64,000 nucleotides of DNA from Opitutaceae bacterium (GCA_965227745.1 OZ245769.1:6296974-6360973), one strand, 5' to 3'. Shown: positions 11,512-50,001, numbered from the stretch's first letter. Numbers and translations are program-made. The notes: generated from the sequence alone by a model not told the origin.

Positions 11512-13184
11512 GTGCCCGTAACTCCACGCCCAAGAGCCGCGCGGGCGAACCCCGAGCGGTCGAACTCATCGAGGAAGCGGTGCAACTGCTCCGGCGCGCG
11601 CCGGCCTCGGCGCTGGCGATTTATTTTTCGGGGGCGGTGCCGTTTGTGCTCGGCCTCCTATTTTTCTGGGCGCACACGACTTGGTTTCACCCACCGAGCG
11701 AGATCGTGGCGTGGGGAGCCTTGGGCTTGGCGGCGCTCTATCTGGTGATGCAGGCCTCGCAGGCAGAGTTTTGCGCGCGACTTATGGCGCTGCGCCTCGG
11801 CGATCAGCCCCCGAGTTGGTCATGGCGGAAGTTCGGCCAATTAGTCTTGCTGCAACTGCGCCTCCAACCCTGGATCGCCCTCGCCGGAATCCCGGTGACA
11901 ATCATTTCCGTGCCGCTGGGATGGTGGTATGCGTACGCGCAAAATGTCACGGTGCTAGGCAACGAGGAGCGGCTGCACGACGAGGCGCTGACGCAGGCCA
12001 AGCTCTGGCCCAAACAGAACCACACGGCCCTCCTCCTCCTCGCGGTGCTCGCGGGCTGCACGTGGCTGAACTTTGCCGGAGCCTTCTTTTTGATCCCATG
12101 GATGGCCAATCGGTTTCTCGGGATTGAGAACATGTTTGGATTCTCCGGCTGGCGGTTTCTCAACAGCACGTTTCTGGCGTCGGTCACTGTGCTTACGTGG
12201 CTGGCGGTCGATCCGCTCGTCAAGGCGTTCTATACCCTGCGCATCTTTCACGGTCGCGCGCGGGCGACCGGCGAAGACGTACGGGTGGAATTGCGACTGG
12301 CGCAGCAGCAACGCAGCGGGCGGATGCGCGCGGCGGCCGTGATTTTATTGGCGACCGTATTATTTGTTCCGGATCGCTCGGCCCGCGCGGCGGAGCCCGC
12401 GCCGGTGAGTGCACCTCAGGCAGTGGCACCCGGCCAACTCGACCGGGCCCTCGATGACGTGCTCTCCACGGGAGATTTTCGCTGGCGTCTGCCGCCGCCC
12501 GCCAAGGCCGAAACCGCCCAGCGCGGGGTGGTCGGGCGATTTATCCAACAGGGGTACGAAACAGTCCGGGAGATGTTTCGCAGTGTCGGGAGATGGCTGG
12601 ATCGCGTGCGCGATTGGATCGATCGCCACTTCAAAAAATCGGATGACAAGGAAGTCAAAGAGCCCACGCGGTCATCCGGGTCCGGCGCGGGGTTGGAGGT
12701 GGTTCGTTTCCTCCTCTACGTCTTTATTGGCGTGGCCGTGCTGTTGATCCTCTGGGTGGTTTGGCTGATTATAGCCCGCGCGCGGCGCAGCGTCACGCCG
12801 TTGCTCACGGCCCGAGCGGTAGCGGCGGCCAGTCCGGACCTGCGCGACGACAATGTCCAAGCCGCGCAATTGCCGGCCGATGGCTGGCTGGCTCTGGCCC
12901 AAGAGCAGATGGCAAAGGGGGAGTGGCGCCTCGCTTGGCGAGCGCTGTACCTGGCGACGCTCGCGCGGCTCGCGGCCGAGGGGCTGGTCTCACTCGCCAA
13001 GTTTAAGACCAATCTCGACTACGAGCGCGAAGTGCGGCGCCGGGCGCTTTCGCGCACGGAAATTGTAACTCGTTTCGCGTTTCGCCGACGCGCCTTTGAG
13101 GATGTGTGGTACGGCCGGGAGCAGGCGGCGGAAGCGGCCGTGCGGGAGTGGCTCGCCGAACTGGAGCGGCCGACTTCACCATGA
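11508..13184 (+). CDS. polytopic membrane protein with C-terminal DUF4129-like domain
   Basis: Multiple TM helices. C-terminus ...DGWLALAQEQMAKGEWRLAWRALYLATLARLAAEGLV...TNLDYEREV...FEDVWYG resembles DUF4129. Confidence 0.7.
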   Translation: MSARNSTPKSRAGEPRAVELIEEAVQLLRRAPASALAIYFSGAVPFVLGLLFFWAHTTWFHPPSEIVAWGALGLAALYLVMQASQAEFCARLMALRLGDQPPSWSWRKFGQLVLLQLRLQPWIALAGIPVTIISVPLGWWYAYAQNVTVLGNEERLHDEALTQAKLWPKQNHTALLLLAVLAGCTWLNFAGAFFLIPWMANRFLGIENMFGFSGWRFLNSTFLASVTVLTWLAVDPLVKAFYTLRIFHGRARATGEDVRVELRLAQQQRSGRMRAAAVILLATVLFVPDRSARAAEPAPVSAPQAVAPGQLDRALDDVLSTGDFRWRLPPPAKAETAQRGVVGRFIQQGYETVREMFRSVGRWLDRVRDWIDRHFKKSDDKEVKEPTRSSGSGAGLEVVRFLLYVFIGVAVLLILWVVWLIIARARRSVTPLLTARAVAAASPDLRDDNVQAAQLPADGWLALAQEQMAKGEWRLAWRALYLATLARLAAEGLVSLAKFKTNLDYEREVRRRALSRTEIVTRFAFRRRAFEDVWYGREQAAEAAVREWLAELERPTSP

Positions 13185-14452
13185 AGGGGCGCGGTTCACT
13201 TTGGGCGCTAGTGGCGGCGCTGGTCCTGCTCGTCGGGGGACTTGCGCTGCTCTTCCAACTGCGACTGGGGCAGGGCGACATATTTCCCGCCTACTCCTCG
13301 TTTCGGGTCGATCCGCTCGGTACCCGCGCGCTTCATGATGGATTGGAGCAAGTGCCAGGCCTGCGCGTGGAGCGCTGGTTGAAACCCATCAAGGACATCC
13401 CGGTTACTCCGCCCCGGACCATTCTCTTTGCCGGCGTCAGCGTGTGGGGCTGGCACACCACCACTACGGATGAATTCAACGCGCTCGATGCCGCGGTTCG
13501 CGCTGGCAGTCGCGTGGTGATCACGATCCGCGCCAAGTCTGCATCCGATGAAACCACGCAAGAAGCCTTTGAGGAAAAGGCCGATCGGAAGAAAGAAAAG
13601 GCAGGGAAGGGAAAGGCCGAAAAGAAAAAAGAGCCGCCGGGGAAGGCCGCAAAAAAGGAGCCCGAAAAAAAAGAAAACCGCCCGCCCGCCCGCGAGCGTG
13701 AGGAACGCGAGAGCCGGGAGTCCAGTGGAGACAACAAGCGGACTGTGGTCGACCTCAAGCAGCTATGGGGCGTGGATCTCAAAGAGCGCATGCTCTTCGA
13801 GCGCGGGGATGATCTGGGAGCGACTCGGGTCATGGCGGGCGATTTGCCGGCCACCGTTCCCTGGAAGAGTGACGTCTATTTCAAAGCCGAGCAGGGCGTG
13901 GAGTGGCGGACCATCTACCAACGCGGAGGTGAAGCGGTATTGGTGGAGCGACAGCTCGGTCGCGGCAGCATCGTGCTGGCCGCCGATTCGTATTTCGTGA
14001 GCAATGAAGCGCTGCAGGCCAACCGCGCGACCTCGCTGCTCACCTGGATGATCGGGCCGCACTCCCGGGTGCTGTTCGATGAGAATCATTTGGGCGTGGA
14101 GCTGCAGCCGGGAGTCGCGGCATTGGCGCGGCGCTATGGGTTGGCGGAAGCGTTCTTCACGCTGCTCCTCCTTGCGGCGCTCTTTGTGTGGCAACGGATG
14201 GCGTTGTTTGTGCCTCCGCCGGAGGAAGTGCGGGAGGTTACGCTCTCTTATCAACCGGCGGCGGGGCTCGAGGCGTTGCTGCGCCGTTCGGTGCCGCCGA
14301 CGGAATTGGCTGCCGTCTGTGTGGAGGAATGGAAACGCACGGCCCGTCCCGGTGACGTCGCCAAGGCCGCCGCTGTCACCGCGTCCGCCCCGAAAAATAC
14401 CTCCGCGGCCGCGCTCCATAATCGGATCCTCCAAGCGCTGCGCCGTCGCTAA
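13181..14452 (+). CDS. DUF4350-like membrane-anchored protein with K/E-rich insert
   Basis: Start MKGRGSLWALVAALVLLVGG overlaps the upstream stop (ATGA). ...SIVLAADSYFVSNEAL...VLFDENHLG is typical of DUF4350. Low-complexity EKKKEPPGKAAKKEPEKKE insert. Confidence 0.65.
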   Translation: MKGRGSLWALVAALVLLVGGLALLFQLRLGQGDIFPAYSSFRVDPLGTRALHDGLEQVPGLRVERWLKPIKDIPVTPPRTILFAGVSVWGWHTTTTDEFNALDAAVRAGSRVVITIRAKSASDETTQEAFEEKADRKKEKAGKGKAEKKKEPPGKAAKKEPEKKENRPPAREREERESRESSGDNKRTVVDLKQLWGVDLKERMLFERGDDLGATRVMAGDLPATVPWKSDVYFKAEQGVEWRTIYQRGGEAVLVERQLGRGSIVLAADSYFVSNEALQANRATSLLTWMIGPHSRVLFDENHLGVELQPGVAALARRYGLAEAFFTLLLLAALFVWQRMALFVPPPEEVREVTLSYQPAAGLEALLRRSVPPTELAAVCVEEWKRTARPGDVAKAAAVTASAPKNTSAAALHNRILQALRRR

Positions 14453-45909: not shown

Positions 45910-46503
45910 ATGCCTGACGACGATCCGCCGTTCGATCTGGCCGGATGCCTCGAACGGGTACGCCGGCAAGATCAACTGGCTGCGCGCGAACTCGTCGATC
46001 ATCTTTACCCCTTGGTTATCCGCATTGTGCGTTCCCATCTCCCCCGGCGCGTTGCTGAGGAAGACCTCGCGCAGGAGATTTTTCTGAAGATGTTCACCCG
46101 CCTCGCACAATATCAGGGAGCGGTTCCTTTTCCGCATTGGGTCTCCCGGATCGCGGTCACGACGTGCATCGATCATCTCCGCGCGCAGAAGCGCCGTCCG
46201 GAGTTTCGGTGGGCCGACCTTTCCGAAACCGAGGCCGAAGTGCTCGATAACATCATCACCAACGAGAACGATGTCCCGGCCAACGATGCGATGGCCGCGA
46301 GCGAACTCGTCCATAAACTCCTCGCCCAGCTCAAGCCCGACGACCAGACCGTGATCCGCATGCTCGACCTCGAGCAAAAGACCATCGCCGAGATCGCCCA
46401 ACTCACGGGTTGGAACCAATCACTCATCAAAGTCCGCGCCTTTCGTGCGAGACGGAAGTTGCAGAAGCTATTTCAAGAACTACAAAAAACCGAACGGTCA
46501 TGA
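45910..46503 (+). CDS. ECF-type RNA polymerase sigma factor
   Basis: Region 2 (ELVDHLYPLVIRIVRSHL...EDLAQEIFLKMF...WVSRIAVTTCIDHLR) and region 4 (LKPDDQTVIRMLDLEQKTIAEIAQLTGWNQSLIKVRAFRARRKL). Confidence 0.85.
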   Translation: MPDDDPPFDLAGCLERVRRQDQLAARELVDHLYPLVIRIVRSHLPRRVAEEDLAQEIFLKMFTRLAQYQGAVPFPHWVSRIAVTTCIDHLRAQKRRPEFRWADLSETEAEVLDNIITNENDVPANDAMAASELVHKLLAQLKPDDQTVIRMLDLEQKTIAEIAQLTGWNQSLIKVRAFRARRKLQKLFQELQKTERS

Positions 46504-47541: not shown

Positions 47542-47637
47542 GGCCAGGTGCCATGCATGGGCAGGCGCGTGAACTCCGCCAGGACCGGAAGGTAGCAACG
47601 GTAACGACGTTCTCCTAGTGCCGTGGAGTGCCTGGCC
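47542..47637 (+). ncRNA. ffs: small (4.5S-type) signal recognition particle RNA
   Basis: Conserved domain-IV core CCAGGACCGGAAGGTAGCAAC (GGAA tetraloop flanked by the symmetric-loop consensus). The 5' GGCCAGG and 3' CCTGGCC ends pair, followed by a T6 run at 47641-47646. It lies immediately upstream of dnaX, a common synteny. The ends are approximate. Confidence 0.7.
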
Positions 47638-47798
47638 ACTTTTTTTATCCGAGCGGTGAGGCTCGTTTTTTCGAGTGGCGGTGAGTGGAGTGCGGCGCGG
47701 AATGAACCCGCAGCAGAGGTCGGAGCTTGCTTGCCAGCGGTTCGCGCGTTGCGCTGACTCCTCGCTTCCTAAATCTTCAGAGGATTTAACACGAACTC

Positions 47799-48953
47799 AT
47801 GTCGGGCACCTACCAAGTCATCGCGCGCAAGTGGCGCCCCCAGACCTTTGCTGACGTCGTCGGTCAGGACCACGTCGTCCGCACCCTGCGCAACGCCATC
47901 TCGCGCCAGCGCATCGCCCACGCCTACCTCTTCGTCGGTCCCCGTGGCACCGGTAAGACTTCCACCGCCCGCATCTTCGCCAAGGCCCTCAACTGCACCG
48001 ACGGCCCCAAGGCCGACTTCGATCCCAACGATCCGGCCTGCAAGGCCATCGCCGAGGGCTCACATCTCGACGTGATCGAGATCGACGGCGCCTCCAACAA
48101 CGGCGTCGATCAAGTCCGCGACCTTCGCGAGACCGTTCGCTACGCCCCCGCGATGGGGAAGTACAAAATCTACATCATCGACGAGGTGCACATGCTCTCG
48201 GCCGCGGCTTTTAATGCCCTCCTCAAGACCCTCGAGGAGCCCCCGGCCCACGTGAAGTTCGTCTTCGCGACGACCGACCCGCAGAAGGTGCTCCCGACGA
48301 TCATCTCGCGCTGCCAGCGCTTCGATCTCAAGCCCATCCCGAACGATCTCATCATCGAGCGCCTCAAGAAAATCGCGATTGAGGAAAAGATCAAAGTCTC
48401 CGACGACGCCCTCGCCTGTATCGCCCGCATGGCCGATGGCGGCATGCGCGATGCCCAGTCCATTTTCGATCAGATGATCTCCTTCTGCGGCGCCGAGATC
48501 TCCGAGCCGGATGTGCTCGACGTCTACGGCCTCGTCGCGGCGGAAAAGATCACCGCGCTCGCCGCCGCCCTCGCCGCCGGCGACCACCAGAAGCTCGTCG
48601 CCATCGTCGATGAGTGTGATGCCGCCGGGCGCGATCTCGTCCGCCTCCTCGTCGACCTCCAGGCCCTCGTCCGCGTCGCCCTGCTCGATGCCATCGCCAA
48701 GGGTGGCAAGAGCGCCGCGCTCGGCGGCGTCGCCATGACCACCGAGCAACTCACCCGCATGCTCGACGGCCTCCGCGAAGGCGAGGGCAACGTGAAGCTC
48801 GGCCTGGCGGAGAAAATCAATTTCGAGGTCACCCTCCTTAAAGCCGTCGAAGCCTCCCGCGCGCGCGCCATCGATTCCCTCATCAAGGAACTCACCGCCC
48901 TCGCCGACGAGTCCGGCTCCGCCACCGACGATAGCGAAAAAAAAAAGGGCTGA
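47799..48953 (+). CDS. dnaX: DNA polymerase III subunit gamma/tau, 0-frame product (384 aa, gamma-length)
   Basis: [30 protein letters not shown]...[40 protein letters not shown]. The 0 frame ends ...[11 protein letters not shown] just after an A10 run. Confidence 0.9.
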
Positions 48954-49558
48954 CTGATCGCTTAGGCCAGCTCGACGCCCGGCTCGGCGTCGCCCTGTTG
49001 GCGAGCAAGCGCGATGTGTTTGTCACTGCCCCGGTGGGCCGCGTCGACGAACGCCCCCTGCCGATTACCGCCCCCGCCGACGCCGGGCGACGTTTCGCGA
49101 ATAGTTCGAGTCGTACGCCGGCGGTCGGAGCGCCGGGTGCAGCCGGCGGAGGGGCGATCCCGGCGTCAAACGCGGCGACCTCAGCGTCCGTAGCAAATTC
49201 CGAGTTCGCTGGGGCTGAGGCCTCCAGCGATGATACCTCCGAGGCCGTCGTGGCCACCGCCGGGCCGATCGATTCGCCGTTCGACGACGCCCCGGTCTCC
49301 TGGCCCGATGATGCGGCGGAATCCTCCTTCATCGCCGAGGCGAAGCAGCGCGGTGAGCCCGTGAAAGCGAGCACCGCCGCCGCCGAAATCATCGACGAAA
49401 AAGACACGAAGTCGCTCCCGCCCATGGCCGACCTCCTCGCACGCATCACGCCCGAAGTCCGCGAGGCGCTGGAGGAATTATTCCGCGCCAAGTTTACCGT
49501 CGTGCGGCGGACGCCGAAGAAGTGGTTTAAGAGTGAGGATGCCTCCTCGACAAAATGA
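48938..49558 (+). CDS. dnaX: -1-frame continuation of dnaX (tau-like C-terminal extension, ~206 codons); alternatively an independent ORF from TTG 48998
   Basis: The frame is open from the A run to TGA 49556-49558. Codon use is GC3-rich. Acidic/Ala-rich linker, then ...[30 protein letters not shown]. Confidence 0.5.
48941..48947 (+). other. A_AAA_AAG slippery heptamer, in phase with dnaX, inside an A10 run (48937-48946)
   Basis: 0-frame codons are GAA AAA AAA AAG GGC TGA. The heptamer and its phase are identical to the E. coli dnaX -1 frameshift site. Confidence 0.6.
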
Positions 49559-50001
49559 GCATGTCGCCGAGCTGGGAAAAGATACCAAGCTTACCTTAGA
49601 CGCTCTGGCCAAGTTGGATACCCGCAACGTCCAAATCCGCGTTCGAAGTTCATCTGGAGAAGCCATTCTCACTTGGGAGGGATACGACGGCGACGATGGC
49701 TTCGATCAATTTCGCATCGACGCTCAGCGTAAAGGCGAAGCGCCCTTTCACTTTGAATTTGGCGGTTGTGTCGTATGGGGCCTGCGCCACACAACGCGCT
49801 TCTTCTCACATGAGACAGACATCGTCGAAGGGGGGATTTCGCCACCCCGATATTCGCACCTACGTATGGTGTCGTGTCGGCTTAGACATAAAGCTCACCG
49901 TCCACTACGACGGCGGCTCGCTTCATGAGGACTTTCTTTTTCGCGGTCCTGTCATCGAGATGGATCGGACCTTCATCGACAGCTACGATGGAAAAATCTA
50001 G
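49533..50001 (+). pseudogene. small hypothetical gene apparently split by a +1 frameshift at a G6 run (49830-49835)
   Basis: Frame A (49533..) reads plausibly up to ...FFSHETDIVE, then becomes R-rich. Frame B (ORF 49696..50001) reads plausibly only after the G run (GGFRHPDIRTYVWCRVGLDIKLTVHYDGG...). Lower-GC region. Start uncertain. Confidence 0.3.

What the first reader, a model, noticed from the sequence alone, without database searches (positions are those of the whole stretch)
48930..49558. dnaX ends just after an in-phase A_AAA_AAG heptamer in an A10 run; the tau-like C-terminus sits in the -1 frame (inverse of the E. coli logic)
Seen directly:
- The 0 frame reads GAT AGC GAA AAA AAA AAG GGC TGA, with the stop at 48951-48953, giving a 384-aa gamma-length protein.
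- The -1 frame (AAA AAA AAA GGG CTG ACT GAT CGC ...) is open from 48938 to TGA 49556-49558, about 206 codons.
- That frame has genome-typical GC3-rich codons and a plausible protein: an acidic/Ala-rich linker, then ...[30 protein letters not shown].

Established knowledge: in E. coli the same heptamer in the same phase causes -1 frameshifting that makes the short gamma, while tau is the 0-frame product. Thermus uses transcriptional slippage on an A run for the same purpose.

Inference: here slippage (ribosomal -1, or insertion of one A in the mRNA) would be required to make the long clamp-loader subunit. That would set the tau:gamma ratio by recoding in the opposite direction.

Alternatives: a homopolymer sequencing error (A11 would fuse the frames), or an independently translated downstream ORF.
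Basis: partly seen in the sequence, partly recalled or inferred. Interest (0 to 1): 0.7.

Follow-up and report, generated by a model that had tools for sequence, protein, structure and literature searches.

The report
Split dnaX needing slippage for tau
This Opitutaceae dnaX gene stops just after a run of ten A's, so the long tau subunit of the replicative polymerase can be made only if the RNA polymerase or the ribosome slips by one base; the arrangement is real and conserved, but it was already described for other bacteria in 2013.

Summary
dnaX (47799-48953) ends as GAA AAA AAA AAG GGC TGA after an A10 run (48937-48946). The -1 frame stays open to 49556-49558, which would give a 586-aa fusion.

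It is not a sequencing error. Fourteen independently assembled Opitutaceae loci carry an A9 or A10 run at the same codon position, each followed by a -1 ORF of 105-168 codons, and 13 of them have a 0-frame stop 1-2 codons later. One is an isolate genome and one is a raw-read assembly.

The -1 ORF is under purifying selection. It ends in a conserved motif, LPPLdELvxRIPxeVREALDDLFRAKFTxVRR. In protein databases this extension appears only as short stand-alone "hypothetical" ORFs.

No conserved downstream hairpin or upstream Shine-Dalgarno-like stimulator was found. Rare A-ending codons keep the run at 9 or more A's, beyond what the heptamer needs. Relatives keep the A run but carry tau in frame 0 or +1. 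I therefore favour transcriptional slippage (insertion of one A), with stimulator-free -1 ribosomal frameshifting as the main rival.

The "inverse" dnaX organisation was published by Antonov et al. 2013 (12 genera, including the verrucomicrobium Coraliomargarita) and restated by Atkins et al. 2016. This is a new member of a known kind. No experimental test was found, and the feature is missed by annotation.

The parts
47799..48953 (+). dnaX 0-frame ORF: gamma-like product, 384 aa, 41.4 kDa, DnaX domains I-III
   Evidence: Pfam DNA_pol3_delta2 (1e-44), DNAX_ATPase_lid and DNA_pol3_gamma3. NCBIfam TIGR02397 dnaX_nterm, 428 bits. Mass.
48937..48946 (+). A10 homopolymer, the slippage site (GAA AAA AAA AAG)
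   Evidence: A9 or A10 in the same register in all 14 Opitutaceae loci examined. Built from rare A-ending codons. Its nine A columns are among only 13 invariant nucleotide columns in the flank alignment.
48941..48947 (+). A_AAA_AAG heptamer in phase with the 0 frame (potential -1 ribosomal shift site)
   Evidence: Present in 12 of 14 relatives. L009 and L013 have A_AAA_AAC instead.
48951..48957 (+). TGAcTGA: 0-frame stop (48951-48953) and +1-frame stop (48955-48957), so transcripts that do not give tau yield gamma-like products
   Evidence: A +1 stop within 2 codons in 8 of the 10 A10 GTDB loci, and the same TGAnTGA in L081. mRNAs modelled with A8 to A14 give only 384-386 aa or 585-587 aa products.
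48947..49558 (+). -1-frame tau extension (203 codons plus stop); the fused tau is 586 aa, 62.4 kDa
   Evidence: Homologous -1 ORFs in all relatives. pN < pS in 89 of 91 pairs over the whole extension.
48947..49009 (+). Conserved helix right after the slip site ([21 protein letters not shown]; consensus GLI[DE]RLExRL), lying upstream of the first start codon in the -1 frame
   Evidence: Alignment A1. The first ATG/GTG/TTG comes 52 nt after the run. AlphaFold helix at residues 2-21, pLDDT about 80.
49301..49357 (+). Conserved acidic motif [19 protein letters not shown] (consensus WPdeaeEaaFLAEArxRGE)
   Evidence: Predicted helix at residues 122-134.
49415..49510 (+). Conserved C-terminal motif [32 protein letters not shown]. 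It is inferred to bind Pol III alpha
   Evidence: pN < pS in 90 of 91 pairs; variation by codon position 41/30/74. Predicted helices 160-166 and 169-182, pLDDT about 90. It aligns with the extreme C-termini of single-ORF tau proteins, but only weakly.

Best explanation
This is a two-ORF dnaX gene. Ordinary decoding gives a 384-aa gamma-like clamp-loader subunit that ends just after an A10 run. The tau subunit (586 aa) is made when a one-base frame change at the run joins the 0 frame to the -1 ORF. That ORF carries a disordered linker and short conserved helical motifs, of which the last about 32 residues are probably the Pol III alpha-binding element.

The most likely mechanism is transcriptional slippage, as in Thermus thermophilus dnaX. 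RNA polymerase reiterates on the T10 template and produces a mix of mRNAs: A11 (also A8 and A14) encodes tau, while A10, A9, A12 and A13 encode gamma-like proteins, because the 0 and +1 frames both stop within two codons. A contribution from -1 ribosomal slippage on A_AAA_AAG is possible.

Shown here: the anatomy, its conservation, selection on the -1 ORF and the absence of conserved stimulators. Inferred: that two products are made, the mechanism, and alpha binding.
For: 1. Anatomy.
2. N-terminal part is DnaX domains I-III.
3. Conservation. An A9 or A10 run in the same register, followed by a -1 ORF of 105-168 codons, is present in 13 GTDB Opitutaceae loci, including the isolate Cephaloticoccus primus, and in a raw-read Logan assembly. 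In 13 of these 14 loci the 0-frame stop falls 1-2 codons after the run; in L012 a TAG comes two codons before it. None of them has a fused ORF.
4. Database picture. A profile of the extension finds 603 cluster representatives at 50% identity (449 at E <= 1e-10). The best 150 are all 85-197 aa and none is fused to DnaX.
5. Selection in the -1 frame. pN < pS in 90 of 91 pairs in the core motif, and third-position variation is 74 against 41 and 30.
6. The conserved peptide starts right after the run and before any start codon.
7. For slippage rather than an E. coli-type cassette:
 - Folds of the 70 nt downstream have z-scores from -1.25 to +1.0.
 - RNAalifold predicts 0 conserved pairs.
 - There is no conserved Shine-Dalgarno-like sequence upstream.
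 - Rfam gives no match to any frameshift-element family at E <= 10.
 - The codon 5' of the Lys codons lies outside the heptamer and always ends in A: GAA in 11 of 11 A10 loci and TCA in 3 of 3 A9 loci. Elsewhere in the same genes GAA is 23% of Glu codons and TCA 4% of Ser codons.
 - Two loci have AAC in place of AAG.
 - PVC and neighbouring lineages keep an A9-A11 run at the same boundary between domain III and the linker, but carry tau in frame 0 (L015, L037, L039, L042, L050, L064, L076) or frame +1 (L073).
 - Every mRNA modelled with A8 to A14 gives a clean gamma-like or tau-like protein.
8. Literature. Antonov et al. 2013 proposed transcriptional realignment for A10 two-ORF dnaX genes by alignment with the experimentally shown Thermus A9 site.
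Against: - No RNA or protein data exist for this organism, so the mechanism and the two products remain inferred.
- A_AAA_AAG is in phase in 12 of 14 relatives.
- The bare E. coli dnaX heptamer shifts about 14-16% in vitro without stimulators (bioRxiv 10.1101/2025.10.02.679949), so ribosomal frameshifting could supply some or all of the tau.
- The +1 stop is not universal: L010 has a 127-codon open +1 frame.
- Homology of the extension to tau C-termini of single-ORF relatives is weak at sequence level: hhalign probability 4%, and HMM E = 0.002 and 0.25 in a 42-sequence set.
- There is no Pfam or PDB match.
- Most relatives are MAGs, whose homopolymer lengths could occasionally be wrong.
Confidence: 0.6

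Rival explanations
1. Programmed -1 ribosomal frameshifting on A_AAA_AAG. Ribosomes that decode AAA-AAG slip back one base and continue into the -1 ORF to make tau. Those that do not slip terminate two codons later as gamma. This is E. coli dnaX chemistry with the roles of the two products reversed.
For: - The heptamer is in the correct phase here and in 12 of 14 relatives.
- The frame change needed is exactly -1 in all Opitutaceae loci.
- The bare heptamer gives about 14-16% shifting in vitro.
- Atkins et al. 2016 discuss the reversed arrangement as frameshift-derived tau and name a Chlorobium candidate with E. coli-like stimulators.
Against: - No conserved 3' hairpin.
- No conserved 5' Shine-Dalgarno-like element.
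- No Rfam match to any frameshift-element family at E <= 10.
- L009 and L013 carry A_AAA_AAC, which the review reports as much less shift-prone in E. coli.
- The run is held at 9 or more A's by a rare synonymous A outside the heptamer.
- Relatives with the same run need a different shift or none (L073 +1; L015 and others frame 0).
Confidence: 0.3
2. The downstream ORF is translated on its own, from an internal start or by termination-reinitiation coupling. It would then be a separate small protein, and the cell would have only a gamma-length DnaX.
For: - Gene callers and NCBI annotate it this way: P0001 (180 aa) and P0021, 'hypothetical protein' of Cephaloticoccus primus.
- A TTG lies at 48998.
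Against: - The conserved motif GLI[DE]RLExRL starts immediately after the run, upstream of the first possible start codon: 52 nt here and 67-115 nt in L001, L005, L010 and L017.
- No start codon is conserved in position.
- In all 11 A10 loci the first 0-frame stop after the run overlaps the second or third codon of that conserved motif.
- A tau C-terminus not tethered to the clamp loader could not couple the polymerase to it (established knowledge of tau function).
- Sister lineages L015 and L016 carry a similar C-terminal motif fused in frame to DnaX.
Confidence: 0.05
3. An artefact or decay: a homopolymer sequencing or assembly error (the true DNA being A11), a recent pseudogenising indel, or DNA-level phase variation of the A run.
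For: Homopolymers are error-prone in some sequencing chemistries, and A11 would fuse the two frames.
Against: - The same out-of-frame state is seen in 14 independent assemblies from different projects and species.
- None of the best 150 representatives is fused.
- Purifying selection on the -1 ORF persists despite near-saturated synonymous divergence, pS about 0.6.
- dnaX is an essential gene (established knowledge).
Confidence: 0.03

Closest known systems
Two-ORF dnaX genes in which recoding is required for tau (Antonov, Coakley, Atkins, Baranov, Borodovsky 2013, NAR 41:6514, PMC3711429; restated in Atkins et al. 2016, PMC5009743)
   Same: - The DnaX N-terminal ORF ends right after a poly-A run (A10 in 9 of 17 genes).
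- Tau continues in the -1 frame.
- The feature is not annotated in RefSeq.
- One listed member, Coraliomargarita akajimensis, belongs to the same verrucomicrobial class, with ...GACGAAAAAAAAAAG....
   Different: - Opitutaceae are not among the nine A10 species shown in their Fig. S3.
- The extension here is a lineage-specific sequence family with no Pfam model.
- Family-wide conservation, the A9/AAC variants and the test for missing stimulators are added here.
Thermus thermophilus dnaX transcriptional slippage on A9 (Larsen et al. 2000, as cited)
   Same: - A long A run lies at the boundary between domain III and the linker.
- Stop codons follow shortly in the two frames that do not encode tau.
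- The result is a heterogeneous mRNA population giving gamma-like and tau products.
   Different: In Thermus the DNA-encoded 0 frame is tau and slippage gives gamma. Here the 0 frame is gamma and slippage is needed for tau. Slippage has not been shown experimentally here.
E. coli dnaX programmed -1 ribosomal frameshifting (Rfam RF00382; Blinkowa & Walker 1990, Tsuchihashi & Kornberg 1990, Flower & McHenry 1990)
   Same: The same gene, the same in-phase A_AAA_AAG heptamer and the same two classes of product.
   Different: - The shift yields the short product in E. coli and the long one here.
- The E. coli run has only 6 A's and depends on a 5' Shine-Dalgarno-like sequence and a 3' stem-loop. 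Neither is conserved or detectable here.

Membership tests
Two-ORF ('inverse') dnaX, Antonov et al. 2013 | ORF1 encodes DnaX domains I-III | tested here: met
   TIGR02397 at 428 bits; Pfam DNA_pol3_delta2, DNAX_ATPase_lid and DNA_pol3_gamma3
Two-ORF ('inverse') dnaX, Antonov et al. 2013 | Poly-A stretch (7-10 A) at the end of ORF1, with a 0-frame stop directly after it | tested here: met
   A10 at 48937-48946 and TGA at 48951-48953
Two-ORF ('inverse') dnaX, Antonov et al. 2013 | A -1 frame transition at DNA level into an ORF that encodes the tau C-terminal part | tested here: met
   A -1 ORF of 203 codons, conserved and under purifying selection. Its identity as the tau C-terminus rests on position, architecture and weak motif similarity to single-ORF tau proteins.
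Two-ORF ('inverse') dnaX, Antonov et al. 2013 | Position and direction of the frameshift conserved among related genomes | tested here: met
   14 of 14 Opitutaceae loci with a complete region
Two-ORF ('inverse') dnaX, Antonov et al. 2013 | Both gamma and tau proteins are actually produced | not testable with these tools
   Needs western blotting or proteomics. No experimental paper was found in the held library.
E. coli-type dnaX -1 PRF cassette (Rfam RF00382) | In-phase A_AAA_AAG slippery heptamer | tested here: met
   48941-48947
E. coli-type dnaX -1 PRF cassette (Rfam RF00382) | 3' stimulatory stem-loop a few nucleotides downstream | tested here: not met
   Fold z-score +0.28 here and -1.25 to +1.0 in relatives. 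RNAalifold gives 0 pairs. No Rfam frameshift-element match at E <= 10.
E. coli-type dnaX -1 PRF cassette (Rfam RF00382) | 5' Shine-Dalgarno-like stimulator about 10 nt upstream | tested here: not met
   The upstream 30 nt are variable, with no conserved GGAGG-like block
E. coli-type dnaX -1 PRF cassette (Rfam RF00382) | The frameshift product is the truncated gamma | tested here: not met
   Here the -1 frame encodes the long product
Thermus-type dnaX transcriptional slippage | Homopolymeric A run of about 9 or more in the coding strand at the gamma/tau junction | tested here: met
   A10 here and A9 or A10 in all relatives, maintained by rare codons
Thermus-type dnaX transcriptional slippage | Stop codons close by in both frames that do not encode tau | tested here: met
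   TGA at 48951 (0 frame) and TGA at 48955 (+1 frame). Seen in most relatives but not all.
Thermus-type dnaX transcriptional slippage | Tau is encoded in the DNA 0 frame | tested here: not met
   Tau needs the -1 frame. Sister lineages such as L015 do have tau in frame 0 with an A10 run.
Thermus-type dnaX transcriptional slippage | mRNA population heterogeneous in A-run length | not testable with these tools
   Needs cDNA sequencing

The most novel reading that the evidence does not exclude
The A-run slippage site at the boundary between DnaX domain III and the linker may be ancient across the PVC superphylum and neighbouring lineages. The frame carrying tau would then have toggled between 0, -1 and +1 by single-base changes. 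Opitutaceae would be fixed in a state where gamma is the default product and the essential tau depends entirely on high-efficiency RNA polymerase slippage. That could make the tau:gamma ratio responsive to transcription conditions such as NTP pools or elongation rate.
Probability: 0.2. Interest if true: 0.5.

Novelty: new member of a known kind. Interest (0 to 1): 0.3.

Why it matters
Tau is the subunit that links the clamp loader to the polymerase and the helicase. In this bacterial family it seems to be obtainable only through a deliberate decoding "error".

The case matters mainly for annotation. Across public databases the tau C-terminus of this lineage is called as a separate hypothetical protein. 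The best 150 of 603 cluster representatives are all short stand-alone ORFs.

It also offers a natural system for asking how efficient transcriptional slippage must be to supply an essential protein, and how the same A run has been used with different frame logic in related lineages. It does not reveal a new principle, since the organisation was described in 2013.

Tried and rejected
- Pfam and NCBIfam on the extension gave no family.
- PDB sequence searches with the extension profile (A1) and with the single-ORF tau C-terminal profile (A2) gave only chance hits.
- hhalign of A1 against A2 aligned the extreme C-terminal motifs, but with probability 4%. A local HMM search put L016 (E = 0.002 in 42 sequences) and L015 (E = 0.25) at their C-termini. 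I treat this as weak support only.
- The AlphaFold model of the extension has mean pLDDT 61.6 and pTM 0.24. It shows four short helices in a disordered chain. It is not globular, so I did not run a Foldseek search, which would have been meaningless.
- The look-up of encoding contigs for P0001 found no record, and the listing of cluster members gave no name or accession. The organism is therefore identified only as Opitutaceae, from the nearest loci.
- There is no tRNA gene in the window, so the tRNA-Lys repertoire, which bears on how slippery AAG is, could not be assessed.
- L051 was set aside as evidence because its assembly has several frame breaks. L012 has an in-frame TAG two codons before the run.
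- Literature searches found no experimental test of any inverse dnaX gene.

Full report
**Observation**

- The ORF starting at ATG 47799 reads ...GAT AGC GAA AAA AAA AAG GGC TGA and stops at 48951-48953 (384 aa).
- The A run is ten bases long (48937-48946), and A_AAA_AAG is in phase at 48941-48947.
- The -1 frame opens just after a TAG at 48932-48934 and stays open for 203 codons past the run, to TGA 49556-49558.
- The +1 frame closes at TGA 48955-48957.
- A fusion across the run gives 586 aa (62.4 kDa), against 384 aa (41.4 kDa) for the 0-frame product.
- About 0.002 A10 runs are expected by chance in this 63% GC window. This is the only homopolymer of 9 or more in 64 kb.
- GC by codon position in the extension peaks at position 3 in the -1 frame (0.78), matching the upstream part of the gene (0.87).

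**What the parts are**

The 0-frame product is DnaX domains I-III. It matches TIGR02397 at 428 bits and Pfam DNA_pol3_delta2, DNAX_ATPase_lid and DNA_pol3_gamma3, the last ending at residue 361. The extension has no Pfam, NCBIfam or PDB match. A bacterial small SRP RNA gene lies directly upstream at 47542-47640 (63.8 bits).

**Comparative evidence that the split is real**

A scan of one genome per GTDB species returned 80 dnaX loci. All 13 Opitutaceae loci with a complete region share the arrangement. These are L001-L010, L012, L013 and L017, and they include the isolate Cephaloticoccus primus.
- Each has an A run in the same register: A10 as GAA AAA AAA AAG in ten loci, and A9 as TCA AAA AAA AAG or AAC in three.
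- In 12 of the 13 a 0-frame stop follows one or two codons later; L012 instead has an in-frame TAG two codons before the run.
- A -1 ORF of 105-168 codons continues.

A raw-read Logan assembly of the closest relative shows the same A10 followed by GGACTGAGTGA. No locus has the fused state. A homopolymer sequencing error, a recent pseudogene and DNA-level phase variation are therefore effectively excluded.

**The -1 ORF is a real coding sequence translated as a fusion**

The fourteen extensions align with three conserved blocks separated by variable Ala/Pro/acidic linkers:
- GLI[DE]RLExRL, immediately after the run;
- WPdeaeEaaFLAEArxRGE;
- the C-terminal block LPPLdELvxRIPxeVREALDDLFRAKFTxVRR.

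In the C-terminal block pN < pS in 90 of 91 pairs. Variation by codon position is 41/30/74, while synonymous sites are near saturation (pS about 0.6). The first block lies upstream of the first possible start codon in the -1 frame: 52 nt after the run here, and 67-115 nt in L001, L005, L010 and L017. This argues against independent initiation.

AlphaFold with 27 sequences predicts four short helices at these blocks in an otherwise disordered chain (mean pLDDT 61.6, about 90 over the last helices). That fits a flexible tether with interaction motifs. By analogy with E. coli tau, whose unstructured C-terminal end binds the alpha subunit (Jergic et al. 2007, recalled from my own knowledge), I infer that the last block binds Pol III alpha. 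This was not tested.

**Link to tau of relatives**

Other Verrucomicrobiota encode tau as a single ORF of 540-650 aa ending in FKNDPLIxKALEIFKGxIVEVR. Two Opitutia outside Opitutaceae, L015 and L016, have single ORFs of 451 and 441 aa. These end in ...LPAAAREALKEQLNGKFRSVRV... and ...LPDSTKNILESRLRAQFSEV..., which resemble the motif here.

Statistical support is weak because the motif is short:
- BLASTP E = 0.049;
- hhalign probability 4%;
- HMM E = 0.002 for L016 and 0.25 for L015 in a 42-sequence set.

All of these alignments fall at the extreme C-termini.

**Database picture**

Two searches of 5.8 billion proteins found only short stand-alone ORFs of 66-180 aa, named "hypothetical protein" where a source gave any name. 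An exhaustive HMM search of 1.84 billion cluster representatives found 603 hits (449 at E <= 1e-10). The best 150 are all 85-197 aa, and none is fused to a DnaX N-terminus. The extension is thus a sizeable lineage-specific family that gene callers always split from dnaX.

**Mechanism**

Both candidate mechanisms give the identical protein ...[11 protein letters not shown].... Several observations favour transcriptional slippage over an E. coli-type ribosomal cassette.

1. There is no downstream structure. The 70 nt after the run fold no better than shuffles (z from -1.25 to +1.0), RNAalifold finds no conserved pair, and Rfam gives no match to any frameshift-element family at E <= 10.
2. There is no conserved Shine-Dalgarno-like block upstream. 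The A run accounts for nine of the 13 invariant nucleotide columns.
3. The run is kept at 9 or more A's by an A at a synonymous position outside the heptamer. The codon there is GAA in 11 of 11 A10 loci and TCA in 3 of 3 A9 loci. Elsewhere in the same genes GAA is 23% of Glu codons and TCA 4% of Ser codons.
4. Two loci have A_AAA_AAC. The review reports this heptamer as much less shift-prone in E. coli.
5. Other PVC and neighbouring lineages keep an A9-A11 run at the same protein position but use different frame logic.
 - Tau is in frame 0, with early stops in both other frames (Thermus-like), in L015, L037, L039, L042, L050, L064 and L076.
 - Tau is in frame +1 behind an A11 run in L073.
6. 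The 0 and +1 frames stop within two codons here, so modelled mRNAs with A8 to A14 all encode either a 384-386 aa gamma-like protein or a 585-587 aa tau-like protein.

Some points count against a firm conclusion. The heptamer is in phase in 12 of 14 relatives. A bare dnaX heptamer shifts about 14-16% in vitro. There are no transcript or protein data. I put transcriptional slippage at about 0.6 and ribosomal frameshifting as the main route at about 0.3. The two may operate together.

**Comparison with what is known**

Antonov et al. [quoted passage not shown] They found 17 genes from 12 genera, nine of them with A10, none annotated in RefSeq, and they proposed transcriptional realignment. Their Fig. 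S3 lists Chlorobi, Bacteroidetes and the verrucomicrobium Coraliomargarita akajimensis. Atkins et al. [quoted passage not shown] I found no experimental test in the held library.

The present locus meets every sequence-level criterion of that class. It fails the stimulator criteria of the E. coli cassette, and it differs from Thermus only in which frame carries tau.

**Verdict**

It is a new member, and a family-wide one, of an already described kind. Its value lies in correcting annotation and in providing a test system for the mechanism. It does not establish a new principle. Interest 0.3.

Noticed in passing
window 47542-47640 (+), and 47650-47672: A bacterial small SRP RNA gene (Rfam RF00169, 63.8 bits against a gathering score of 40) lies directly upstream of dnaX. 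It is followed by a terminator-like hairpin and a T run.
   Followed up: partly
L073:2565-2575 and downstream to about 3062: A Leptospirales MAG has an A11 run followed by a 0-frame stop two codons later. Its tau C-terminus (161 codons, ending ...IKNAFYGEIIKKGE) lies in the +1 frame, which -1 ribosomal frameshifting cannot reach. It needs loss of one A or gain of two, or else the homopolymer length is misassembled.
   Followed up: partly
L015:4124-4133; L037:4182; L039:4206; L042:2612; L050:4137 and 4200; L064:4193; L076:4241: Other PVC and neighbouring lineages carry A9 or A10 runs at the same boundary between DnaX domain III and the linker. These include Puniceicoccaceae, Akkermansiaceae, Kiritimatiellales, Lentisphaerae and Leptospirales. 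Tau is in frame 0 and both other frames stop early, which is a Thermus-like layout. This suggests that the frame carrying tau has toggled around a conserved slippage site.
   Followed up: partly
L012:3120-3122; L051 whole locus: L012 (a MAG) has an in-frame TAG two codons before the A10 run, so its 0-frame product would end before the slip site. The L051 dnaX is broken by several frame changes, pointing to a poor assembly, but locally it shows the same inverse layout: CCC GAA AAA AAA AAG CCC TAG with the -1 frame continuing.
   Followed up: partly
window 13665-13672: The only other homopolymer of 8 or more in the window is an A8 run. It sits in a Lys/Glu-rich stretch inside an uninterrupted 448-aa ORF (13106-14452, +), with no sign of a frame change.
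   Followed up: yes
window 45910-46503 (+) and 49533-50001 (+): An ECF-type sigma-70 factor gene lies upstream (Sigma70_r2, Sigma70_r4_2). The region just downstream of the tau stop holds only ORFs with no Pfam match. The ybaB/recR genes that commonly follow dnaX in other bacteria (from memory) were not found there.
   Followed up: partly
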